Made by a program: the position numbers and the translations under genes. Below are positions 6,519-30,574 of a stretch of 64,000 bases of DNA, piece by piece (the stretch's first letter is position 1; the number at the start of each line of letters is the position of its first letter). This stretch comes from a virus (Duplodnaviria > Caudoviricetes): the IMG/VR virus record IMGVR_UViG_3300031813_000003, positions 151,975 to 215,974 of that record, one strand, 5' to 3'. The notes under the pieces are model-generated. The model was not told the DNA's origin and ran no database searches. It was given only the letters and a program-made list of their open reading frames with translations.

Positions 6519-8006
6519 ATGCCAAAGATTTATGTACTTGACACAAATGTTCTGCTCTTAGATGGAAACGCAATCAACAAATTCGAAGAAAACATCGTAG
6601 TTATCCCTCAACCTGTTCTAAATGAAATTGACAAACACAAAAAAGACCCTGATGGTGAGATTAGATACAATTCTAGACAGTTCTCTAGGAACGTAGATGA
6701 ATTAAGGAAACAAGGAAGTCTATCAAATGGTGTTCAGCTAAATGATCAAGGTGGAATGCTGTATGTAACTCTATTTGATGATAATGTAGCTTCATTATTA
6801 CCCTTCCAAGATATGTCCTATATGGACAACCGTATCCTTGCTTGCGCTTTATATGTTCAAAAAAATAACTTTTGTGAATTAGGTGAAGAAGTATATGAGG
6901 TTGTCATTGTTTCTAATGATACCAACATGCGTATTCTTGCTGATATTTTTGGTCTTCAAGCTGAAGACTATAAAAATTCTAAAGTACAAAGTGATGAACT
7001 ATACACAGGGATTCAACATATCTATGTTGACCAACAGTGTATTGACTTGATGTATACCCTAGGAAAATTCGATCTAGCTGATGCTCAACCATTCTTAGAT
7101 GATTCACATTTGGGGGTTTCATTTAATATTACTGATGAATATATATCATATGTACCTTCCCCAAATGAATGTTTTGTATTTCATTCTCTATCAAATACAA
7201 AACAAAGTGCGTTGACTAGGTACAACTCTGTAATGAAAGAGTTTAGAGTACTTCCACAAGATATGAAAACTTGTGATGCTCTTCCACGTAGTGCTGAACA
7301 AGCATTCGCATTGGATATTCTTAAAGACCCTGAAGTATGCTTAGTATCTCTTAACGCCAAGGCAGGGTGTGGTAAAACTTTCTTAGCCCTAGCTGCTGCA
7401 ATACATGGTGTGATGGAAACCCATACATACAACAAAATCCTACTTTTAAAGCCTATTGTGCCAATGGATAATAGTCATGAGCTAGGATTCCTCCCAGGAG
7501 GTCTAGACGAGAAGCTTGGACCTTGGATGGCATCTTATGCAGACAACATCGAACAGATAATGTCCAAGTATATCAAAGAAGATGGATATGACAAAGGGAA
7601 GAAACCAAAGAACAAGAAAGAAGAAAAGCAACAAGATGATTACTTTGAGAAACAACAAGGTAAAACTAGCCCTATTCAGGAAATGATTGCTTTAGGATTG
7701 CTTGAATTTGGATCACTAGAGCATGCTAGAGGGCGAAACTGGAGCAACACATACGTCATCATAGATGAAGGACAAAATACCAGTAAAAGCACAATGAAGA
7801 CCATTCTGACACGTATTGGGGAAGGATCAAAGATTGTAGTTATGGGTGACCCTAGCCAGATAGATTCTCCATACCTTGACAGTAAGAGTAATGGACTTGT
7901 GATAGTTCAAGACCTTTTTAGATCATCTGACCTAGCAGGGCATATCACCCTAACAAAATCTGAAAGAAGTAAACTTGCAGAACTAGCAGCTGAACTACTA
8001 AACTAA
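6519..8006 (+). CDS. phoH: PIN-domain PhoH-family ATPase
   Basis: YVLDTNVLL PIN motif; AKAGCGKT Walker A; RGR, IIDEGQN, GDPSQID, SERS. Confidence 0.92.
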   Translation: MPKIYVLDTNVLLLDGNAINKFEENIVVIPQPVLNEIDKHKKDPDGEIRYNSRQFSRNVDELRKQGSLSNGVQLNDQGGMLYVTLFDDNVASLLPFQDMSYMDNRILACALYVQKNNFCELGEEVYEVVIVSNDTNMRILADIFGLQAEDYKNSKVQSDELYTGIQHIYVDQQCIDLMYTLGKFDLADAQPFLDDSHLGVSFNITDEYISYVPSPNECFVFHSLSNTKQSALTRYNSVMKEFRVLPQDMKTCDALPRSAEQAFALDILKDPEVCLVSLNAKAGCGKTFLALAAAIHGVMETHTYNKILLLKPIVPMDNSHELGFLPGGLDEKLGPWMASYADNIEQIMSKYIKEDGYDKGKKPKNKKEEKQQDDYFEKQQGKTSPIQEMIALGLLEFGSLEHARGRNWSNTYVIIDEGQNTSKSTMKTILTRIGEGSKIVVMGDPSQIDSPYLDSKSNGLVIVQDLFRSSDLAGHITLTKSERSKLAELAAELLN

Positions 8007-22223: not shown

Positions 22224-22883
22224 ATGAATCTCTATGATTACCTAGGGATAGCACTTCTGAATGATAGTAGTCCTGAGACAGTTAAGACTAAACTATATTG
22301 CTTGTGCCATGATATTCCTTACAAAATGTACAATAAAAATCAAATTATAGATTCAAACTTTGTTCCTGTTGGTGGAAGTGTTGAATGGTGTCAGAAACAA
22401 TTAGGTTATTCTATTATACCTGATTACTATCCTTCATGGCTAAATATTTATATTAGTAGAAATATTTGGTATGCTGATAAATGGGATTTTATTGGTAAAC
22501 ATATTTTTATAAAGCCTAGTGACAAGTACAAAAGATTCACAGGGTTTATCACTACTGGAACTTATAGTAAAAAGCGTAAGCCTCCATTTATGTGTTCATC
22601 TGTAGTAAAGTTTATAGATGAATTTCGGTATTACATTTCAAATGGTGAAGTTCTATCTGCTGATTGGTACTATGGTGAAGAGAAGACTATTATAGCACCA
22701 AAAATATCTTTTGATGCCATTACACCTATTGGATTTTGTGGTGCTGTAGATATTGGTATTTTAGATAATGGAGAATATGAACTGATTGAAGTTCAGCATC
22801 CTTTTGCTTGTGGTTGGTATGGTGATGATATAGCACTATACATACAATGGTGTATTGATGGGTGGAAATATATGAAAAAATAG
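22224..22883 (+). CDS. ATP-grasp (R2K/DUF4343-like) protein
   Basis: FIKP...K.FTG, EFR, VDIG...IEV. Confidence 0.75.
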   Translation: MNLYDYLGIALLNDSSPETVKTKLYCLCHDIPYKMYNKNQIIDSNFVPVGGSVEWCQKQLGYSIIPDYYPSWLNIYISRNIWYADKWDFIGKHIFIKPSDKYKRFTGFITTGTYSKKRKPPFMCSSVVKFIDEFRYYISNGEVLSADWYYGEEKTIIAPKISFDAITPIGFCGAVDIGILDNGEYELIEVQHPFACGWYGDDIALYIQWCIDGWKYMKK

Positions 22884-22898
22884 ATAAAGGAGAAAGGA

Positions 22899-23396
22899 AT
22901 GTCTGCCACGCAAATTGTACTATTAGATCAGTCGTATAACTTTTTGAACTTGATTACTATCAAGAAAGCTGTTCGTCTTATGGTAAAAGATAAAGTAGAA
23001 GTAATCAAGTCTACTGATAGAGAATTACGTTGCGGATTTTTCTTGCCTAAAGTTCTTAGACTACTTAAGCATATTAACACTAATCTATCCAAAAAGATTC
23101 CATTCTCTAAGCAGAATATCTTTGTAAGGGATGATTATACTTGTCAGTATTGTGGTAAAGTATTGAATGCAAAAACAGCAACAGTGGATCATATAGTTCC
23201 CCAGGCTAAAGGTGGTAAAAACTCTTACGCTAACTGTGTTTGTAGTTGTAAGACTTGTAACCAATGGAAAGCTGATAAGCATCTACACGAAACCAGTATG
23301 AAACTTCGTAGAGTGCCACAACATCCATCATTCCTTGAGTTCATGTATCTCAAAGCCAAATCATTTGGTATTGACATGAAAGCCATATTTAACTAA
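22899..23396 (+). CDS. HNH endonuclease (McrA-like)
   Basis: RDDYTCQYCG...TVDHIVP...GG...N...C..CN..K. Confidence 0.9.
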   Translation: MSATQIVLLDQSYNFLNLITIKKAVRLMVKDKVEVIKSTDRELRCGFFLPKVLRLLKHINTNLSKKIPFSKQNIFVRDDYTCQYCGKVLNAKTATVDHIVPQAKGGKNSYANCVCSCKTCNQWKADKHLHETSMKLRRVPQHPSFLEFMYLKAKSFGIDMKAIFN

Positions 23397-23400
23397 ACAG

Positions 23401-23475
23401 TTTGCCTTAGTACAACGTTAGAGTATTCTTCCCGTTATAGGAAGCGATTCAAGGTTCAAGCCCTTGAAGGCAAAC
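23401..23475 (+). pseudogene. tRNA-like sequence with TTA at the anticodon position, no CCA
   Basis: CTTCC CGTTATA GGAAG; T-arm intact. Confidence 0.45.
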
Positions 23476-23792
23476 CTCTCTTGCCCTCCAAAATAAAATG
23501 TAAATTTAAATTGACAAAAACATATCCTTTTGGTAAAGTTACTTTACGTTATTTAAACCCAAAGGAGATTTATCATTAAAACTGAATCCTTGATGCGGAA
23601 AGCACTTCGTGTAGTTGAAATGACTTTTCAACCTGAAACAGGGCTGAAAAAGCTACAATGCGAGAAGTTGATGACGCAATCATCAGAGCAGAAAAAGATG
23701 GAATCAAAGTTGAATGGGAACAAAATAAAATTGACAATCAAAAAGAACTTTACTAAGATGTTCTTACTACAAACGAACTAAGGAGATTATAA

Positions 23793-24302
23793 ATGAATTA
23801 CGCAGAAATTAAACTTACTATTGACGCAATTGAGAACCCTCTTACCGATTGCAGGGACTTACTGAAACGTTTAATCGATGGTGATTATTTAAATCTTCAG
23901 GATGTGTTCACCATTATCGGTAACGGAAGTATTGCAGGTTTCAACTCTGTAATCAATGGTATTTCCACCAGTCCTAATCAATATACAACTTATTCGAATC
24001 TCAATAAAATTGGGCAGACCATCCCTGCAATCAAGGCGATTCGTAGTGATTTCGGTCTTGGATTGAAAGAGGCCAAAGATATCAACGATATTATTAAAGA
24101 CTGTGTTTGTATAACTGCTAAATGTTTTATCAATGGTATTGAACTTACTAAGGAGCAGTATAGTAATTATGTCAATGGTATTGGTAATAAAATAAATGTG
24201 ATTAGGATGATCCGTCAGGATCATAATATAGGGTTGAAGGAAGCAAAGGACATTGCAGATACGATTCAGGATCGTGCTCGTCTCGGAATAGCAAGTTTTT
24301 GA
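23793..24302 (+). CDS. protein with two ribosomal L7/L12 C-terminal-like repeats
   Basis: IPAIKAIR...LGLKEAKD and KINVIRMIR...IGLKEAKD. Confidence 0.75.
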   Translation: MNYAEIKLTIDAIENPLTDCRDLLKRLIDGDYLNLQDVFTIIGNGSIAGFNSVINGISTSPNQYTTYSNLNKIGQTIPAIKAIRSDFGLGLKEAKDINDIIKDCVCITAKCFINGIELTKEQYSNYVNGIGNKINVIRMIRQDHNIGLKEAKDIADTIQDRARLGIASF

Positions 24303-24394
24303 TAATAATTACTCCCGTTAATTCGGTGGAGTTAATCTAGATGAAATGGAAATACACTAGATACATCAAAAGTGTTTCCAAGTAGCATCTATAT

Positions 24395-24618
24395 GGGCTT
24401 GTGCTGGAATTGGTAGACAGGATCGGAGGATATATTAGTCCCTAGTAGGAAGTCATGAGCCTAACAAGACTGTATTGAGACTGATTGGATGAACAAGCAG
24501 TGAATTGGTTGGCGGGAATAGAGTCATAATCTATTCACAGTATGGGAGTCATGACCTAATACCCAATCATGAAACTATTTGGAATTCCTTGGAGGTTCGA
24601 CTCCTCCTAAGCTCACCA
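24395..24618 (+). ncRNA. 224-nt RNA with tRNA-like ends and three GTCATRA hairpin loops
   Basis: GGGCTT/AAGCTC ACCA; D-loop GGAATTGGTAGAC; T-arm GGAGG-TTCGACT-CCTCC. Confidence 0.7.
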
Positions 24619-24687
24619 TAAATTAAATTGTTGATTATTTAAATTGACAAGGACTAGAAAGTGTAGTAGAATGGTTTATCAGTTGAA

Positions 24688-24788
24688 AGCAAGTCAAATA
24701 TCCGAATAGTGTAAACGGTTACCCAAAGGCCAAGGGTGTAAAATCCAAACCGGATTTTGAGAAGGTTCAAATCCTTCAGTGACTTGTT
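24688..24788 (+). ncRNA. non-tRNA structured RNA with a T-arm
   Basis: AGCAAGTCA/TGACTTGTT; GAAGG-TTCAAAT-CCTTC; promoter at 24644. Confidence 0.5.
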
Positions 24789-24793
24789 AGTAG

Positions 24794-25297
24794 AAGTGGT
24801 ATGTTAGGCGGTTTCCACTATAAAAAAGAACCGTCAGAATTTAATGTGTGAGGCATTCGGTGCATCCACTAAGAAGAGTACCGGAGAACCTGAACTGATA
24901 CTACGAAAGGTTCTTAATAGAAAGGATAGAATTTCATCAAGAAACTCCGACATTGACTGATGAAATGTTCAGACCTTGAATCCAATTGTTTAATAAAACT
25001 GGTCATGCTCCGATACCTTACTAGTAATCGGGAAGTTGATCCCTGCGAAGGATTATCAATATCAAAGTAAGTTGATGTTGTGCCAGTTTTACGATTTAAA
25101 CTTTTCACCTGGGAGAGGTTCAAATTAGAGTATGGATCGTTTTGCGGTGGCTCTAATCGTTCAAGAAGATTTCTTACACCTAATCAACCCGTTAAAGGGT
25201 AGAAAGGTTCCCAAAGTAAGTTATCTGATAGACCCATTCAATCGCAAGTTGAAGTCCTTCAGAGTAAGCAAACGTGAAAGGGACGGTGAAAAGTTTA
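24794..25297 (+). ncRNA. large multi-helix ncRNA candidate
   Basis: No + strand ORF; 13-bp TAAACTTTTCACC/GGTGAAAAGTTTA; AAAACTGG/CCAGTTTT; GNRA hairpins. Confidence 0.55.
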
Positions 25298-25314
25298 CTA
25301 AATACTAATGAATA

Positions 25315-25389
25315 TGCGGGTTAAATTAGTGGTAAAGGTCAGTCTCATAAGCTGTATCTCCTGAGTTCGATTCTCAGACTCCGCACCCA
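25315..25389 (+). tRNA. tRNA-Met(CAT)
   Basis: CAGT CTCATAA GCTG; CCA. Confidence 0.78.
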
Positions 25390-25481
25390 AAATCTATATT
25401 CAACACACCATTATCAAACTCCCAATGGTGTGTAGGGCATAGTGCAACTAGATTATCAATATGCAACAAATCCGTTTAAAA

Positions 25482-25583
25482 TGTTGGGCTATAACTCTGA
25501 TAATGAGCGTTGTAAATTATGAGGATACTTCTATACTAATGGATGTAGTACTCATTGATCAGTCCCTCGTTACTCTCCCAACA
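25482..25583 (+). ncRNA. ATACTTCT-family ncRNA, copy 1
   Basis: TGTTGGG/CCCAACA outer stem; ATGAGG/CCTCGT inner stem. Confidence 0.7.
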
Positions 25584-25598
25584 GTAGCACCGTAGAAA

Positions 25599-25728
25599 GA
25601 CTTTGGCTCAACCCCTGACATGTTGTTATATTTGGCATACTTCTCTCATACTTGATAACAGGGAACTCCTTCGGGAGCTACCTGTGACTAATTGACATGT
25701 TCAGGATGCCTTGGTAATATCCAAAGTC
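25599..25728 (+). ncRNA. ATACTTCT-family ncRNA, copy 2
   Basis: GACTTTGG/CCAAAGTC; GGC/GCC; internal TTCG hairpin. Confidence 0.72.
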
Positions 25729-25745
25729 TATTTGTAGCAAAATAA

Positions 25746-25824
25746 GACAGGCTATAATTTTATAATCGGCATACTTCTATACCAACTTAAAATTGACAAT
25801 TAAAACGCCAGTTAATCCCCTGTC
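25746..25824 (+). ncRNA. ATACTTCT-family ncRNA, copy 3
   Basis: GACAGG/CCTGTC; GGC/GCC. Confidence 0.72.
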
Positions 25825-25900
25825 ACCCTGATGAAGATGTATTTAGAATGATGATATGTGAATAATTATTGGAAAGACTTGAAAAGAATTTGAAGAAACA

Positions 25901-25967
25901 TGAGGGCTATAGTCAGAGCATACTTCTACCAATCACTTTAATTGACTCAGCTACCTAATCTCCCTCA
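25901..25967 (+). ncRNA. ATACTTCT-family ncRNA, copy 4
   Basis: TGAGGG/CCCTCA; AGC/GCT. Confidence 0.72.
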
Positions 25968-26168
25968 ACCGTAAGGAACTAACGAATGAATTGTCCTAAA
26001 TGTGGTAATGAACTTGTAACAATGATGACAACTCAATATATGGCTAAAGGTAAACAAACAGTATCTATCCAGGAACCTTGGGCAATATGCTCAAAAGCAA
26101 TAAATGATTTACTCAACCAAGCTAAAGAAAATGTTTGTAGATATGCTGTAATGGAATAAAAATAAATT

Positions 26169-26243
26169 GCGCCTATAGTTCATTGGCAGAACAAGGCACT
26201 CTAAATGCTTGTGTAGTTGGTTCGATCCTAACTAGGCGCACCA
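26169..26243 (+). tRNA. amber suppressor tRNA (anticodon CTA)
   Basis: GCGCCTA/TAGGCGC ACCA; AGGCA CTCTAAA TGCTT; canonical D and T arms. Confidence 0.9.
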
Positions 26244-26289
26244 AATATGTATTTAAATATTCACACCAAACCTATAAAGGAGAATAACT

Positions 26290-26328
26290 ATGAAAAAGCT
26301 TTAGGTTAACCCAAAACACCCTCCATAA
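26290..26328 (+). CDS. minigene MKKL(amber)VNPKHPP-stop
   Basis: SD AAAGGAG; ATG AAA AAG CTT TAG GTT AAC CCA AAA CAC CCT CCA TAA. Confidence 0.65.
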
Positions 26329-26394
26329 ACTTCTCACAATTATTGTACTAAGGAATTATCATAATCAACCTTAACCAATTAAAGGAGAAGTAAA

Positions 26395-26709
26395 ATGGAA
26401 ACTTTATTCGAAACTAAAGAATCTTACCTAAAAATGCGTAGTAATTTCAAGAAATGGTACAACACTGAAGACAATCGTAAAACCTTAACCGCAGCAGACT
26501 TTGCTTTGTATGCCTTGATAAGGAACAAAGATTGGAGAAAGTGCTTCACTCCAAACTCAGACTTAAACAAAATCGAAGAAATTGAAAACATCATCAACAA
26601 CAGAAAAACTTGCTACATCAATTTGAAACCTTATGGTACAACTGTAACTGAAGAAATGATCACAATTCTACGTAAACGTGGGATTGCAAAGTGGATGAAT
26701 TTACTCTGA
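26395..26709 (+). CDS. hypothetical protein in the suppressor/PTH module
   Basis: Strong SD; 104 aa. Confidence 0.75.
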   Translation: METLFETKESYLKMRSNFKKWYNTEDNRKTLTAADFALYALIRNKDWRKCFTPNSDLNKIEEIENIINNRKTCYINLKPYGTTVTEEMITILRKRGIAKWMNLL

Positions 26710-27318
26710 TACCATTTTACAATTATCAAAGTGATACCTGTTCATAACAGGTTTACCACCACTTTTATTACAATGTGGGCAAGTAACTATCTCTTTTTTT
26801 ATATTCTTTTGAGATTTAAGTTTTTCTTTATGTTCATTTGAAAGGGGAGGTCTACCAATAACATATCCATTATCCAAATAATATTGCATTTTACTTTTAT
26901 TAACTCTTTGTGTATCTTTAGTTATTTTGTTATAAAGCCATACCTTTGATGATATTTTTGTTGCAATGTTGTTTTTATGTGTTTCTGTTAGGGTTATCCT
27001 TTTTTTTCTAGTACCAATATTAGGAGAAATATTACCACCCGCTCCGCCATTTTTGATGTTATAAACATCAGACCTTTTTAAAAAGGTATCATCTACTAGA
27101 TTAGATTCAGTTTCATATGCTGCTTGCTCAGTTTCAAAAATTGTTATTATTTCTTTTTTAAAGTTAGATGTACCATATTTTTTAACCGCAAGTTTTAAAC
27201 GAAACCCTGATCCAAGATAATCATCATATGGGTCTAATGTTTTATGAACTCCAATATATATTTTATTGTTTATTAAATTTGTTGTTTTATACAATGTAAA
27301 TAACATAACTAACCTCAA
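26701..27318 (-). CDS. Seg-like GIY-YIG homing endonuclease
   Basis: YKTTNLINNKIYIGVH...YLGSG; C-terminal CPHC...RYHFDNCK. Confidence 0.88.
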   Translation of the reverse strand: MRLVMLFTLYKTTNLINNKIYIGVHKTLDPYDDYLGSGFRLKLAVKKYGTSNFKKEIITIFETEQAAYETESNLVDDTFLKRSDVYNIKNGGAGGNISPNIGTRKKRITLTETHKNNIATKISSKVWLYNKITKDTQRVNKSKMQYYLDNGYVIGRPPLSNEHKEKLKSQKNIKKEIVTCPHCNKSGGKPVMNRYHFDNCKMVSE

Positions 27319-27378
27319 ATAAAAAGTATTTTATACCTACGCATTTGTATTTATGTAAATACTTTAGGAGAAAGAAAA

Positions 27379-27708
27379 ATGGAATAGAAAGTTTACACAT
27401 ATGCATTTATAAGAAGAGATTTACCTATTCACACACAATTAGTGCAAACGGCCCATGCAACATTGGAGTTAGGGCTACAGTTGAAAGAGGAAAAGAAACC
27501 GAAGGAAACGTCCTTTTTGATCCTTTTAGATGCTAAAGATCAAGACCATCTGAAAGAGATTGCATGTTACCTTGATGATCATAGCATCGAGCATCATCTA
27601 TTCTTTGAACCAGACTTGCCTATTAATGGGTTTACAGCTATATGCTCAGAACCATTGCCTCTGGAGAAAAGAAAACTTTTCAAAAAATTTAAATTGTGGA
27701 AAATATAA
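27379..27708 (+). CDS. PTH2-like peptidyl-tRNA hydrolase with TAG at codon 3
   Basis: SD AGGAG, ATG GAA TAG AAA...; YAFIRRDL...Q.VQTAHA...FFEPDL...TAI. Confidence 0.75.
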
Positions 27709-27709
27709 A

Positions 27710-27769
27710 TTGACAAACGAATCTCCTTTGTGGTACTGTTGATTATCAATTGAATCACAAAGGAGATTT
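27710..27769 (+). promoter_or_regulatory. early promoter / inverted-repeat cassette
   Basis: TTGACA; AATCTCCTTTGTG/CACAAAGGAGATT. Confidence 0.78.
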
Positions 27770-27925
27770 ATGAACATCTGGTGTTTATTTGGGTTCCATG
27801 ATTGGGACAAATTTGGTAAGCAGTTTGCGTTTGGTTCTTACGCTTTTCAAAATAGAAAATGTAAACGTTGTGGAAAAATTCAACAGAAACAATTCGGATG
27901 GTTCGAACCACAAGGGGATTTATAA
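27770..27925 (+). CDS. small Cys/His protein (DUF1660-like)
   Basis: WCLFGFHDW...CKRCG. Confidence 0.55.
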   Translation: MNIWCLFGFHDWDKFGKQFAFGSYAFQNRKCKRCGKIQQKQFGWFEPQGDL

Positions 27926-28360: not shown

Positions 28361-28438
28361 TGAGGCTCCAGACTTTCGGATACTTCTAAAAACAATCAAA
28401 CCTTAAATTTGACTCTATCCCCGAATCTATTACCCTCA
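28361..28438 (+). ncRNA. ATACTTCT-family ncRNA, copy 6
   Basis: TGAGG/CCTCA; TTCGG/CCGAA; ends 21 nt before the ATG of the TerD-domain gene. Confidence 0.72.
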
Positions 28439-28459
28439 ACTATAAAAGGAAATAAAAAA

Positions 28460-30574
28460 ATGAACAACGAACTTCAAGAAATCCTCATTCGTAGAAAGTC
28501 CCTTACCTTCCTCAAAATCAGCATGAAAGATGTTGGATTCACTACTCCTAAAGGGATGGTTGGTGCAATCATTGGTAACTTTGGTTCTCTTGGGTATGTA
28601 ATGTCCAAAGAACTTGTTGACCTTCTTTCTTTATGCAACAATGCAGAACTGGTTGAATACCACAACACCGTGTTCCCCATCTTGAAGAATCAGGTAGGTG
28701 CTACCTATAGGCATCGTCCTATGTATCCCAACTTTCCTGAGCAGGTAGCGAATGCTTCTGATGAAGAACTTTTCATCAATGCAATCATGCACTACTTTGG
28801 TGCGGCTGTTGGTATGCGTATCATGCCTGAATACGAAAAGGAAGTTCGTTTCCCTTTCTGTGAAACCACTGAGCCTCGTTTCCTTGGGCTTGTAAGTTCA
28901 TTCGAACTTGAGGAATGCTACCGTCAGATTCTTGAATCCAAAGCTTCTCCTTCTGTTCAGGATAAGAACGACATTATCACCTTTCTGAAAGAAGGATATG
29001 CAGAAGTGAGTGCAACCATCGTCTGTAAGGAAACTCTTGCTTTCATGTGCGCTCTATGCTCCAAAACTGGTGCTTATTGGTATCAGTTGAAGACTGCAAC
29101 TGATGTTCTTCGTGTTGCTGTTGCTATGAACGATGGTGATGTTTCTCTCACCAAACCTTCCAAGTTTGGTAAGTTCACACGTTCTATGCGTAGAATGATT
29201 CTCCAGAGATTGGAGATCATGGATCAGAATTCTGTTACTGAAGACATGAAGCGTTTCGAAGGAATGTGGATTCGTCTTGGGGAGAAAATTCACCCTGCGG
29301 AATATAGCAATCAGTATGCTAGGATTGCTGAATCCTTCCGTAAACTTCGTAACGGTGAAGTCCAGACCACTAACTCCAAGATCGAAGCACTACTTGGTGT
29401 TGGTAATATGCCTGAATTGGTGAAGCTTCTTTCAACTCGTCCAGGAGATTTTGCACGTAGACTGAATGCGGTCATGACCAAATTTGATAATAAGTTTTTT
29501 ATCATTGATGCATTCAAAGCTGTTGCTGATAAAGTGTCTGCACCTGTGCTTTGGCAGCTTCGTGGATATTACGCAAGTCGTAATGAGCAGGTTGCTTTTA
29601 GGAATCGTCTGTTCCTTCCTAAGACTCCCAAGGCACTTGTTGCACCTAATAACCTTGCGCCTCTTGAAGTAGGGTTCCAATGGAACCTTCTAAATGTTAT
29701 TGATGAAGCACTTATCAATAAGTATGTAGATCAGCCTGAAATGAATAAGGTTTATATTGACCCTGTTTGTGAGAAGCTTCTGATTCCTTCTGGTAATCGT
29801 TCTGCTTCTACTGCGCTTCGTCAGGTTGGTAGGGGAAGTCGTTTCCAACTCGACAATACCAAATCAACCGTAAGGTTGTTTGTGTACTGGAAAGATATTG
29901 AAGGTAAAGATAGCTGGTCTTCTAGGGTTGACCTTGACCTTTCCGCTGTGATGTATGACAAGGATTGGAAGTTTGTTGGTCAGTGTTCTTGGACTAACCT
30001 TCGCAGTGGCAGAGGAAAGAATTCAGAAATGGTTCACTCTGGTGATATCACTTCTGCTCCTGATGGTGCATCTGAATTCCTTGATATCAACATGGATATG
30101 CTTTCTGCTAATGTAGCATACATTGCAGTTAATGTATACTGCTTCACTGGTCAGAAGATGACTCAGCTTAATGTTGGATTCGCAGGTTGGATGGAAAGAG
30201 AGTATGCAGGGTCTGGAGAAATCTATGAACCTAAGTCCGTAGCAGGGCGTTGTGACCTTACCGCTGATGCAACTAGCACCTGCCCTATGATCCTTGATGT
30301 AGCCAATCGTGAGGTTATTTGGGCTGATCTAGCCCTAGTTATGAATAGGTATTGTCAGTCAACTGAAACTACTCTTGATAAGGGTATCGCAACTGCTGAA
30401 CTGGTTAGTCGTATGTCCACTACTAGGTCTTCACTGATGGACTTGTTCCTAATGCAGGTTCAGGCTAGGAAAGGTGAAATCGTATTCGAAAGGGAAGAAG
30501 CAGATTTCGTTATTGCTGAAGATGGTGACCTTTCCCCTTATGATGTAGCTAAGATCATGAGTGATTTTATCTAA
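28460..30574 (+). CDS. large helical (putative Ro/TROVE-like) protein with C-terminal TerD domain
   Basis: TerD motifs VDLDLSAV, HSGDITSAP, SEFLDI; helical N-terminus with MYPNFPEQV, TATDVLR, RPGDFARRL. Confidence 0.75.
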   Translation: MNNELQEILIRRKSLTFLKISMKDVGFTTPKGMVGAIIGNFGSLGYVMSKELVDLLSLCNNAELVEYHNTVFPILKNQVGATYRHRPMYPNFPEQVANASDEELFINAIMHYFGAAVGMRIMPEYEKEVRFPFCETTEPRFLGLVSSFELEECYRQILESKASPSVQDKNDIITFLKEGYAEVSATIVCKETLAFMCALCSKTGAYWYQLKTATDVLRVAVAMNDGDVSLTKPSKFGKFTRSMRRMILQRLEIMDQNSVTEDMKRFEGMWIRLGEKIHPAEYSNQYARIAESFRKLRNGEVQTTNSKIEALLGVGNMPELVKLLSTRPGDFARRLNAVMTKFDNKFFIIDAFKAVADKVSAPVLWQLRGYYASRNEQVAFRNRLFLPKTPKALVAPNNLAPLEVGFQWNLLNVIDEALINKYVDQPEMNKVYIDPVCEKLLIPSGNRSASTALRQVGRGSRFQLDNTKSTVRLFVYWKDIEGKDSWSSRVDLDLSAVMYDKDWKFVGQCSWTNLRSGRGKNSEMVHSGDITSAPDGASEFLDINMDMLSANVAYIAVNVYCFTGQKMTQLNVGFAGWMEREYAGSGEIYEPKSVAGRCDLTADATSTCPMILDVANREVIWADLALVMNRYCQSTETTLDKGIATAELVSRMSTTRSSLMDLFLMQVQARKGEIVFEREEADFVIAEDGDLSPYDVAKIMSDFI

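What the first reader, a model, noticed from the sequence alone, without database searches (positions are those of the whole stretch)
26169..27708. Amber-suppressor-gated module: tRNA(CUA), amber minigene ending Pro-Pro-stop, and PTH2-like hydrolase with TAG at codon 3
Seen: a clean cloverleaf with anticodon CTA (26201-26203). About 45 nt downstream is an SD-led minigene ATG AAA AAG CTT TAG GTT AAC CCA AAA CAC CCT CCA TAA. After a 104-aa ORF and an inserted Seg endonuclease comes an SD-led gene ATG GAA TAG AAA..., whose frame continues into a PTH2-like protein; its first conserved strand (YAFIRRDL) lies upstream of any alternative start. Long core genes are intact in code 11, so this is local rather than genome-wide recoding. 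Established: very short minigenes cause peptidyl-tRNA drop-off, Pro before a stop impairs termination, and peptidyl-tRNA hydrolases recycle peptidyl-tRNA. Inference: suppressor availability versus host RF1 activity acts as a switch, so the hydrolase is made only when amber is read through, with the minigene as sensor or leader. This could counter host translation-arrest defences.
Basis: partly seen in the sequence, partly recalled or inferred. Interest (0 to 1): 0.9.

Follow-up and report, generated by a model that had tools for sequence, protein, structure and literature searches.

The report
Stop-codon-gated phage operon with suppressor tRNA
A lake-water giant phage carries a tRNA that reads the stop codon UAG next to a tiny leader gene and a tRNA-hydrolase-like gene that can each be read to the end only if that stop is overridden; many distant phages keep the same layout, so it looks like a natural, apparently unpublished switch driven by stop-codon read-through.

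Summary
These are tRNA(CUA) at 26169-26243, the SD-led leader MKKL-TAG-VNPKHPP-TAA at 26290-26328, ORF104, an inserted GIY-YIG endonuclease, and a PTH2-fold gene (27379-27708) with TAG at codon 3. Contigs from independent lake samples carry the same letters.

- **Conservation.** Among 65 distinct related loci, 24 PTH2-like genes have an early in-frame stop, and it is always TAG. I found 23 distinct leaders of the form M-x-stop-x(5-8)-Pro-Pro-stop. The internal stop matches the phage's suppressor tRNA: TAG with CUA, TGA with UCA.
- **Hairpin.** The last Pro codon, the stop and about 10 further bases pair with the SD and AUG of the next gene. Modelling a ribosome at the Pro-Pro-stop frees that SD; a ribosome at the internal stop does not.
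- **Not recoding.** The genome is not recoded as a whole.

My best reading is a two-step translational gate that depends on suppression. What the PTH2-fold protein and ORF104 do is not shown, and the catalytic Lys of Pth2 is absent.

Other agents of this scan reported the same device on other DNA. I found no publication describing it.

The parts
26169..26243 (+). Amber-suppressor-type tRNA with anticodon CUA (26201-26203), a 7-nt loop CUCUAAA, A36-A37-A38, discriminator A and encoded CCA
   Evidence: Found by ARAGORN and by Rfam RF00005 at 56.8 bits. Homologous tRNA(CUA) genes lie on the same strand near the PTH2-like gene in most related loci.
26277..26328 (+). Leader ORF with its SD (AAGGAG 26277-26282): ATG 26290, MKKL, TAG 26302-26304, VNPKH, Pro-Pro 26320-26325, TAA 26326-26328
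   Evidence: Sequence read. There are 23 distinct homologous leaders in relatives. All have a purine after the internal stop, synonymous variation in the Pro codons, and a terminal stop that is never TAG.
26322..26399 (+). Hairpin that hides the SD. The 5' arm (26322-26335) is the last Pro codon, TAA and 7 further nt. The 3' arm (26385-26399) is the SD GGAGAAG plus AUGGA of ORF104.
   Evidence: The MFE fold has z = -2.4. Pairing between the two windows is 11.3 pairs against 4.2 +/- 3.7 in shuffles, reached by 3 of 100. The same architecture with unrelated sequences occurs in relatives. In the three-state model the unpaired probability of the SD is 0.39 free, 0.39 with a ribosome at TAG and 0.61 with a ribosome at TAA.
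26395..26709 (+). ORF104, a conserved all-helical protein of unknown function and the first gene controlled by the leader
   Evidence: Homologues sit directly downstream of the leader in at least 11 lineages by phmmer and probably 17. W against L009 gives dN/dS 0.18. The model has pLDDT 84 and matches nothing in PDB, Pfam or the Atlas.
26701..27318 (-). GIY-YIG (Seg-like) homing endonuclease gene inserted at the ORF104/PTH2-like junction
   Evidence: It matches phrog_314 homing endonuclease at E 6e-33, with weak Pfam GIY-YIG and SegE hits. In relatives L009 and L011 the two flanking genes overlap directly, with no insert.
27366..27708 (+). PTH2-fold gene with its own SD (AGGAG 27366-27370): ATG 27379, GAA, TAG 27385-27387, then 106 sense codons and TAA 27706-27708
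   Evidence: Pfam PTH2 scores 21.7 bits against a cut-off of 23, over residues 9-106. The AlphaFold model has pLDDT 96 and Foldseek TM 0.78 to 1q7s, 1wn2, 3erj and 2zv3. The TAG lies at the homologous place, three codons before Y-x-Y, in L009/10, L011, L016, L018 and others.

Best explanation
This is a self-contained phage module, tRNA(CUA) - leader - ORF104 - PTH2-fold gene, whose protein output depends on amber suppression at two points.

**Step 1, the leader.**
- It is probably transcribed together with the tRNA, which ends 46 nt upstream.
- If RF1 terminates translation at codon 5 (UAG), the ribosome stays about 18 nt short of a hairpin that pairs the SD and AUG of ORF104, and ORF104 stays shut.
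- If the phage tRNA reads UAG, the ribosome runs 7 more codons to Pro-Pro-UAA. Peptide release after Pro is slow there, so the ribosome lingers on the 5' arm of the hairpin.
- That frees the SD of ORF104 for a second ribosome.

**Step 2, the PTH2-fold gene.**
- Its third codon is UAG, upstream of its first beta-strand, so a foldable protein again needs suppression.
- In relatives this gene is translationally coupled to ORF104. Here a homing endonuclease has split the pair, and the gene has its own SD.

**What the device does.** ORF104 and the PTH2-fold protein are made only, and steeply, when the suppressor tRNA is processed, charged and able to outcompete RF1.

**Shown and inferred.** Shown: the anatomy, its conservation, the anticodon/stop covariation and the hairpin. 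Inferred: read-through itself, the stall, the opening of the SD and co-transcription with the tRNA. The role of the two proteins is a guess: I suspect they act on aminoacyl- or peptidyl-tRNA, either to clear by-products of suppression or to limit it.
For: **Sequence reliability**
- The TAGs are not errors. Independent lake-water contigs are identical over both.

**Early stop in the PTH2-like gene**
- 24 of 60 distinct PTH2-like genes with a covered N-terminus have SD-ATG, 2-6 sense codons and then a stop, with no ATG before the conserved Y-x-Y..IR strand.
- That stop is TAG in 24 of 24 and never TAA or TGA.
- Two further genes carry a TAG at a shared internal site.
- The cultured phages RsoM2USA (ATG TTG TAG) and CBB (ATG GCA CAA TAG) show the same feature.

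**Selection on the genes**
- W against L011 gives pN 0.14 and pS 0.81. W against L024 gives pN 0.18 with saturated pS.
- ORF104 has dN/dS of 0.14-0.18.

**The leader family**
- There are 23 distinct leader peptides. The internal stop is at codon 3-6 in 21 of them, and 7 residues follow it in 15 of the 23.
- The terminal stop is TAA or TGA, never TAG.
- The Pro-Pro codons vary synonymously, with 9 different codon pairs.
- The pattern occurs 39 times in frame against at most 2 in the controls.

**Context of the gated stops**
- The base after the gated stop is a purine in 47 of 47 cases.
- From my own knowledge (Bossi 1983; Miller and Albertini 1983), this is the context in which amber suppression is efficient.

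**Match between anticodon and stop**
- In 26 loci CUA goes with TAG, in 1 locus UCA goes with TGA, and there are no mismatches.
- The second TGA-type leader (L013) belongs to a phage that carries two tRNA(UCA) genes, as I had predicted before looking.

**The hairpin**
- Pairing between the window [last Pro codon + stop + 16 nt] and the window [SD..AUG+3] has a median of 11.3 pairs, against 4.0 in shuffles.
- In 14 of 25 loci at most 5 of 100 shuffles reach the observed value.
- The median unpaired probability of the SD is 0.31 free, 0.31 with a ribosome at the internal stop and 0.61 with a ribosome at the terminal stop.

**Fold of the gated protein**
- The first strand (residues 5-12) and half of helix 1 lie upstream of the only alternative start.

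**Published background**
- C-terminal Pro slows release (Hayes 2002 and Pierson 2016, as cited in PMC7246954).
- RAPP and RGPP motifs arrest ribosomes (PMC10951233, PMC12992588).
Against: - There is no expression, proteomic or ribosome-profiling data, and no listed run holding this stretch is on record as RNA.
- The W leader ends in KHPP, not the experimentally validated R-[AG]-P-P. A strong stall in this phage is therefore an assumption.
- The predicted opening of the SD in W is moderate (0.39 to 0.61). In 5 of 25 relatives my fixed windows show no excess pairing, mostly because the 5' arm starts earlier.
- The tRNA is encoded right beside its clients, so it is unclear what variable the device would sense. 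It could be a fixed damper or a delay rather than a switch.
- The amino-acid identity of the tRNA could not be determined.
- The PTH2-fold protein lacks the Lys loop of Pth2.
- 19 of 60 relatives have neither a gate nor a leader, so gating is not obligatory for the protein.
Confidence: 0.7

Rival explanations
1. Fixed damper or timer rather than a sensor. The tRNA is always made together with its clients, so the two UAGs simply keep ORF104 and the PTH2-fold protein at a low, delayed level (roughly efficiency squared). Viral read-through proteins are set in a similar way. Nothing about the host would be sensed.
For: - The tRNA lies 19-47 nt upstream of the leader in many loci, which suggests a single transcript.
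- The two gates are in series.
- The context of the stop favours efficient suppression, with a purine following in 47 of 47 cases.
Against: - A weak SD or weak start would achieve low expression without a dedicated tRNA, an arrest-type tail and a hairpin.
- The elaborate leader-hairpin design is typical of conditional switches.
- The computations here cannot separate this reading from the main one.
Confidence: 0.2
2. bar-like toxic minigenes. The very short ORFs (ATG GAA TAG; ATG AAA AAG CTT TAG) would exist to provoke peptidyl-tRNA drop-off and starve the host of particular tRNAs. The PTH2-like enzyme would serve as the phage's own remedy.
For: - The ORFs are formally 2-4 codon minigenes with strong SDs.
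- Lambda bar minigenes are phage-borne and are linked to Pth (my own knowledge; review PMC8012679 appeared).
- A Pth2-fold gene lies adjacent.
Against: - The frame after the stop is conserved: it continues into a Pro-Pro-stop tail or into the PTH2 fold.
- The stop is always the one read by the adjacent tRNA.
- The sense codons before the stop are not conserved, so no particular tRNA would be targeted.
Confidence: 0.06
3. Genome-wide or late-gene stop-codon reassignment (TAG read as an amino acid, 'code 15'), of which these two TAGs would be only examples.
For: - The phage encodes tRNA(CUA).
- TAG is a rare terminator, ending only 9 of 206 plus-strand ORFs of at least 100 aa.
Against: - Long genes are intact under code 11.
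- TAG-flanked open frames are not enriched: 19 for TAG against 64 for TAA and 38 for TGA. The best TAG cases are ordinary gene boundaries followed by SD-ATG.
- The only other early-TAG candidates, at genome positions 7509 and 35733, are out-of-frame artefacts.
Confidence: 0.03
4. Decaying pseudogene, or initiation downstream of the TAG, so that no read-through is needed.
For: - Gene callers annotate truncated products of 77-98 aa that start after the TAG.
- The PHROG family phrog_34073 covers only the C-terminal 70 residues.
Against: - The gene is under purifying selection.
- TAG, and only TAG, is found in 24 lineages.
- No ATG lies between the TAG and strand beta1.
- The truncated form would lack beta1 and half of helix 1 in a model with pLDDT 96.
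Confidence: 0.03

Closest known systems
Arrest or leader peptides that unmask a downstream ribosome-binding site (SecM-secA, MifM-yidC, ermC leader; RAPP/RGPP peptides ApdA, ApdP, ApcA; PMC7897499, PMC10951233, PMC12992588)
   Same: Both are a short upstream ORF ending in a proline-rich stalling tail. The stalled ribosome sits on one arm of a hairpin that hides the SD of the next gene. Some relatives carry a true RGPP (L078, L083).
   Different: The input here is read-through of an in-frame stop by a phage suppressor tRNA, not secretion, a drug or a metabolite. The leader is only 10-13 codons long. Pro-Pro is followed directly by the stop. The W tail is KHPP, not R-[AG]-P-P.
TnaC-tnaA regulation, and the synthetic 'UAG in a leader peptide' switch (Liu et al. 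2011, Nat Biotechnol 29:164, described in PMC6412442)
   Same: TnaC stalls at a Pro-stop junction because release is inhibited. The synthetic switch makes downstream expression depend on translating a leader past an inserted UAG with a suppressor tRNA. That is the same logic as the one proposed here.
   Different: The tna switch and the synthetic one act on transcription, through Rho and a rut site. Here the predicted effect is translational, through SD sequestration. This device is natural and conserved, and I found no rut site or terminator.
prfB (RF2) autoregulation through an early in-frame UGA
   Same: Both place an early in-frame stop codon in a translation-related gene, so that the yield reports on the competition between termination and an alternative decoding event.
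   Different: prfB needs a +1 frameshift and senses its own product. Here decoding stays in frame and uses a dedicated tRNA, and no feedback has been shown.
Stop-codon-recoded phages with suppressor tRNAs (TAG read as Gln, 'code 15'; crAss-like and Lak phages; PMC7886860, PMC13037316)
   Same: Both have a phage-encoded tRNA(CUA) and in-frame TAG codons in phage genes.
   Different: In those phages many genes, mainly late ones, are recoded. Here only the leader and one small gene are, and TAG still ends other genes. The XacN1 paper (PMC5852040) reports that no targets could be found for such tRNAs in a standard-code jumbo phage.
Archaeal and eukaryotic peptidyl-tRNA hydrolase Pth2 (PF01981; 1q7s Bit1, 1wn2, 3erj, 2zv3, 1xty)
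   Same: The fold is the same (TM 0.72-0.78). The motifs RxDL, Q..HA and an acidic EPD strand end are kept.
   Different: Sequence identity is 13-23 %. The Pfam score is below the gathering threshold. The Gly-Lys loop that carries the catalytic Lys is two residues shorter, with a conserved Gln at that place. Activity is untested.
Lambda bar minigenes (AUG AUA stop)
   Same: Both are phage-borne ORFs of two to four codons with a strong SD and a link to peptidyl-tRNA hydrolase.
   Different: In the present module the frame continues into conserved coding sequence, and the stop matches a phage suppressor tRNA. Neither is true of bar.

Membership tests
Pth2 peptidyl-tRNA hydrolase (PF01981) | Pth2 alpha/beta fold | tested here: met
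   The model has pLDDT 96 and pTM 0.87. Foldseek gives E 4e-6 and TM 0.78 to 1q7s, and also matches 1wn2, 3erj, 2zv3 and 1xty.
Pth2 peptidyl-tRNA hydrolase (PF01981) | Sequence score above Pfam's gathering threshold | tested here: not met
   The score is 21.7 bits against a cut-off of 23. A family profile against PDB finds a peptidyl-tRNA hydrolase (24bt) at only E 0.0013.
Pth2 peptidyl-tRNA hydrolase (PF01981) | Catalytic Lys in the Gly-Lys loop after strand 1 (Lys18 of S. solfataricus Pth2, recalled from memory) | tested here: not met
   The HMM alignment to 24bt puts its 'tgKK' opposite a two-residue gap followed by T19-Q20. Q20 is at least 90 % conserved and no Lys is present. This rests on a sequence alignment, not on a superposition.
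Pth2 peptidyl-tRNA hydrolase (PF01981) | Hydrolysis of peptidyl-tRNA or N-acyl-aminoacyl-tRNA | not testable with these tools
   This needs an enzyme assay.
RAPP/RGPP-type ribosome arrest peptides | C-terminal core Arg-(Ala/Gly)-Pro-Pro | tested here: not met
   The W leader ends K-H-P-P. Among 23 distinct leaders only L078 and L083 have RGPP. Ten have x-R-P-P, four S-P-P and four G-P-P.
RAPP/RGPP-type ribosome arrest peptides | Small upstream ORF whose stall site overlaps a structure that hides the SD of the downstream gene | tested here: met
   Residues 26322-26335 pair with 26385-26399. The excess over shuffles holds in 14 of 25 loci and the three-state model agrees.
RAPP/RGPP-type ribosome arrest peptides | Demonstrated translation arrest | not testable with these tools
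   This needs toeprinting or PURE-system translation.
Stop-codon-recoded phage (code 15) | In-frame TAG in many genes, and TAG not used as a terminator | tested here: not met
   Only the leader and the PTH2-like gene carry functional in-frame TAGs. Nine long plus-strand ORFs end in TAG, several of them followed by the SD-ATG of the next gene.
Stop-codon-recoded phage (code 15) | Phage-encoded tRNA(CUA) | tested here: met
Lambda bar-type minigene | A stand-alone 2-3 codon ORF whose only product is a di- or tripeptidyl-tRNA | tested here: not met
   The frame past the stop is conserved as coding sequence: the PP-stop tail or the PTH2 fold.
Canonical elongator tRNA | Cloverleaf, 7-nt anticodon loop with U33 and purine 37, T-loop GTTCGATCC | tested here: met
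   Rfam scores it at 56.8 bits. The loop is C-U-CUA-A-A and CCA is encoded. Aminoacylation identity could not be determined.

The most novel reading that the evidence does not exclude
The module may be a closed feedback circuit on the genetic code itself. Read-through of UAG would switch on ORF104 and a Pth2-fold enzyme that has lost the usual Lys. These two would act specifically on the suppressor's aminoacyl- or peptidyl-tRNA, or on tRNAs acylated by host toxins. The phage could then hold stop-codon suppression at a set level, or clear its by-products, while it manipulates host termination. The suppressor tRNA, its sensor and its effector would travel together as a small mobile cassette, in amber and opal versions.
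Probability: 0.2. Interest if true: 0.9.

Novelty: new variant of a known kind. Interest (0 to 1): 0.8.

Why it matters
Suppressor tRNAs in phages that otherwise use the standard code have had no known target. The XacN1 authors looked for targets and found none (PMC5852040). This module gives those tRNAs concrete, conserved clients.

It also shows a natural leader-peptide switch whose input is stop-codon read-through. Synthetic biologists built the same logic by hand in 2011.

The design is testable in cultured jumbo phages. RsoM2USA carries both the gated gene and a tRNA(CUA). It also points to two small proteins, ORF104 and a Pth2-fold protein without the usual Lys, whose function is probably tied to the management of tRNA or of termination during infection.

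A practical point: gene callers truncate or miss these genes (CBB_406 is annotated short; the RsoM2USA gene is not annotated), so the family is under-annotated.

Tried and rejected
- **Searches that found nothing.** Megablast of 26100-27800 against the phage records gave no match. A single-protein scan of viral contigs found no confirmed relative. The family alignment was needed.
- **Complex of ORF104 and the PTH2-like protein.** I did not resend it, so there is no verdict.
- **RNA evidence.** No listed run holding this stretch is on record as RNA. All runs laid were DNA contigs, so nothing can be said about expression.
- **ORF104.** Pfam gave only a sub-threshold GNAT hit (E 0.016), which I dismissed. 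PHROGs gave nothing, Foldseek against PDB gave nothing with E below 1, and the Atlas gave only 'hypothetical' clusters.
- **tRNA identity.** Comparing the suppressors with 157 other phage tRNAs was uninformative. The best neighbours were tRNAs from the same position in other loci.
- **Other early-TAG genes in this genome.** The candidates at 7509 and 35733 are out of frame with real genes.
- **Anti-SD reading of the Pro codons.** I considered that CCT CCA might be conserved only as an anti-SD sequence. I rejected this as the sole reason, because the Pro-Pro codons vary synonymously (CCG CCG, CCA CCG and others) and the pairing partner varies with them.
- **Ochre-suppressor call at 23402-23476.** The loop has G33 and U37, Rfam does not find it, and there is no TAA-type leader near it. 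The only TAA-internal match in the genome, at 137370, looks like chance.
- My first dN/dS run for the PTH2-like gene of W against L009 used a start one base off. I discarded that row and kept the other pairs.
Full report
**Where the window lies.** The window is the last 64 kb of a 215,974-bp virus record that CheckV rates complete (34 % G+C). Lake-water metagenomes hold it. It carries 22 tRNA calls, all in the window.

**The observation.**
- ARAGORN and Rfam agree on a canonical tRNA at 26169-26243 with anticodon CUA.
- Forty-six bases after it, an SD (AAGGAG) leads ATG AAA AAG CTT TAG GTT AAC CCA AAA CAC CCT CCA TAA, at 26290-26328.
- ORF104 follows at 26395-26709. Then comes a GIY-YIG homing endonuclease on the other strand, at 26701-27318 (phrog_314, E 6e-33).
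- Last is an SD-led ATG GAA TAG (27379-27387), whose frame runs on for 106 codons.
- The read-through product scores just under Pfam's PTH2 threshold (21.7 against 23 bits) but matches over the whole domain.
- With an alignment of 37 relatives it folds at pLDDT 96 into a Pth2 fold, with TM 0.78 to Bit1, PH1539, AF2095 and MJ0051.
- Its first strand (residues 5-12) and half of helix 1 lie upstream of the only alternative start, GTG at codon 22.
- Contigs of runs X3, X4 and X5, which are not among the possible source samples, are identical across both TAGs.

**The early TAG is conserved.**
- The closest relatives (L009/L010, 84 % identical protein; L011, 77 %) have both features.
- Their leaders read MKKL-TAG-VCRKRPP-TAA and MRKH-TAG-TNRPP-TAA. 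Their PTH2-like genes open METNH-TAG-[VI]RYTYAF.
- A family alignment then found 12 viral and 72 metagenomic loci.
- After removing duplicates there are 65 loci, 60 of them with the N-terminus covered. Of these, 24 have SD-ATG, 2-6 sense codons, a stop, and no ATG before the conserved strand.
- That stop is TAG every time, never TAA or TGA. Two more genes share a TAG at an internal site.
- The N-terminal residues around the TAG are otherwise free to vary. Non-gated homologues have Gln or Asp at the aligned place.
- The genes are under purifying selection. Non-synonymous differences are 0.14-0.18 where synonymous sites are near saturation.
- The cultured jumbo phages show the same feature: RsoM2USA has ATG TTG TAG and the gene is unannotated; CBB has ATG GCA CAA TAG and the gene is annotated short. 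RsoM2USA also has a tRNA(CUA).

**The leader family.**
- There are 23 distinct peptides of the form M-x(1-4, rarely more)-stop-x(5-8)-P-P-stop.
- All have an SD, all lie on the gene strand, and all lie upstream of the operon.
- The pattern occurs 39 times in frame in 421 kb. Shifted by one or two bases it occurs 2 and 0 times, and on the other strand 1, 0 and 0 times.
- Seven residues follow the internal stop in 15 of the 23 leaders.
- The terminal stop is TAA or TGA, never TAG.
- The two Pro codons use nine different synonymous pairs, which argues for selection on the peptide.
- The base after every gated stop, in leaders and in genes, is a purine (47 of 47).

**The stop matches the tRNA.**
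- A suppressor tRNA lies on the same strand within about 0.02-2.5 kb in 27 of the 43 loci that have a gate or a leader. It is often the only tRNA in the locus.
- Where both are seen, CUA goes with TAG in 26 loci and UCA goes with TGA in L020.
- The other TGA-type leader (L013) had no suppressor in its 10-kb locus. I predicted a tRNA(UCA) elsewhere in that phage and found two.

**Mechanism of the leader.**
- In W the bases UCCAU, which span the last Pro codon and the first base of UAA, pair with AUGGA at the start of ORF104.
- ACUUCUC, just after the stop, pairs with the SD GAGAAGU (z = -2.4).
- Relatives with unrelated sequences keep the same architecture. L011 shows a compensatory change: GGAGAAG/CUUCUC becomes GGAGAAA/UUUCUC.
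- Pairing between the two windows has a median of 11.3 pairs, against 4.0 in dinucleotide shuffles. In 14 of 25 loci at most 5 of 100 shuffles reach the observed value. For W it is 11.3 against 4.2 +/- 3.7, reached by 3 of 100.
- I then blocked the mRNA that a ribosome would cover. The median unpaired probability of the SD..AUG window is 0.31 for free RNA, 0.31 with the internal stop in the A site and 0.61 with the terminal stop in the A site. For W the values are 0.39, 0.39 and 0.61.
- Slow release after C-terminal Pro is documented (Hayes 2002 and Pierson 2016, as cited in PMC7246954), as is arrest at R-[AG]-P-P (PMC10951233, PMC12992588).
- The W tail is KHPP, so it is not a member of the RAPP class in the strict sense.

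**What the leader controls.**
- In most loci the gene directly after the leader is an ORF104 homologue. phmmer links 11 lineages and an alignment suggests 17.
- The PTH2-like gene overlaps or abuts its end. In a minority (the L012 group, L020, L026) the leader sits directly before the PTH2-like gene.
- In W the endonuclease cassette has been inserted exactly at the ORF104/PTH2 junction. The PTH2-like gene has gained its own SD and lost three N-terminal codons, but it kept the TAG.
- ORF104 is all-helical (pLDDT 84) and matches nothing known.

**Not a recoded genome.**
- TAG ends 9 of 206 long plus-strand ORFs. The TAGs that have open frames on both sides are ordinary gene boundaries.
- The two other early-TAG candidates are out of frame with real genes.

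**Function of the proteins.**
- The Pth2 motifs RxDL and Q..HA and an acidic strand end (E77-P78-D79) are invariant. The loop that carries the catalytic Lys is two residues shorter, with Gln20 conserved there.
- I therefore file the protein as PTH2-fold with activity unknown.
- The gene sits beside the suppressor and needs it. My best guess is an enzyme that works on aminoacyl- or peptidyl-tRNA, either to recycle by-products of suppression or to limit it. Nothing here tests that.

**Literature and earlier notes.**
- I found no paper describing the module.
- The XacN1 paper states that targets of its CUA suppressor tRNAs could not be found.
- The synthetic counterpart, a UAG placed in a leader peptide, is described in PMC6412442.
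- Other agents of this scan reported the amber-gated PTH2-like gene (58 notes, at least 43 genomes) and the amber-gated Pro-Pro leader (12 notes, at least 11 genomes) on other DNA.
- I reached the same reading from my own searches before I looked those notes up. I took from them only the comparison with RAPP peptides, which I then checked.

Noticed in passing
window 22881-22899 (and L009 860-877): The ATP-grasp (R2K)-like ORF 22224-22883 ends in TAG and is in frame with the HNH ORF 22899-23396, five codons later. In relative L009 the junction is again TAG and in frame, with four codons between. This may be a third amber client, a read-through fusion.
   Followed up: partly
window 27709-27770; other copies at genome 81542, 187248, 154277, 183420, 140647, 175476, 161313, 77590 and 41169: A repeated intergenic element. 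It has a TTGACA promoter-like box followed by a hairpin whose 5' arm CTCCTTTGTG pairs with the SD CACAAAGGAG of the next gene. The genome holds at least 10 copies.
   Followed up: no
window 23402-23476: ARAGORN calls a tRNA(UUA) 'ochre suppressor' here. Its loop has G33 and U37, Rfam does not find it at gathering score, and no TAA-type leader or gate lies near it. It is a doubtful gene.
   Followed up: partly
L015 5446-5522, L021 3913-3988, L062 1091-1166: In some relatives the tRNA beside the PTH2-like gene is called Arg(UCU). Its loop (CUUCUAACA or CACUCUAAA) also contains CUA and may be 8-9 nt long. These tRNAs are the nearest sequence neighbours of the CUA suppressors.
   Followed up: partly
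L022/L023 and L088-L095, about 4634-5135 in L022: This phage lineage has tRNA(CUA), the leader ML-TAG-VLNHGPP-TAA and an ORF104-like gene. Only the C-terminal 47 residues of the PTH2-like protein remain, in another frame. This could be a remnant or a frameshifted fusion.
   Followed up: no
L015, L017, L019, L022/23: Several relatives carry a phage tmRNA gene within a few kb of the module. This suggests a wider cluster of translation quality-control genes.
   Followed up: no
window 24302-25986 and 28409-30574: A 1.7-kb stretch has no ORF of 60 aa or more but contains a weak tRNA-like Rfam hit (25316-25385). It lies upstream of the module. Downstream is a 721-aa protein with a weak TerD match. 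Other first-stage notes on this genome read this as a Y-RNA/Ro-like system. I did not examine it.
   Followed up: no
L009 4519-5256; window 26701-27318: Different homing endonucleases sit at different edges of the PTH2-like gene in close relatives: a NUMOD3 type in L009/L010 and a GIY-YIG type in W. The module appears to be a hot spot for endonuclease insertion.
   Followed up: no
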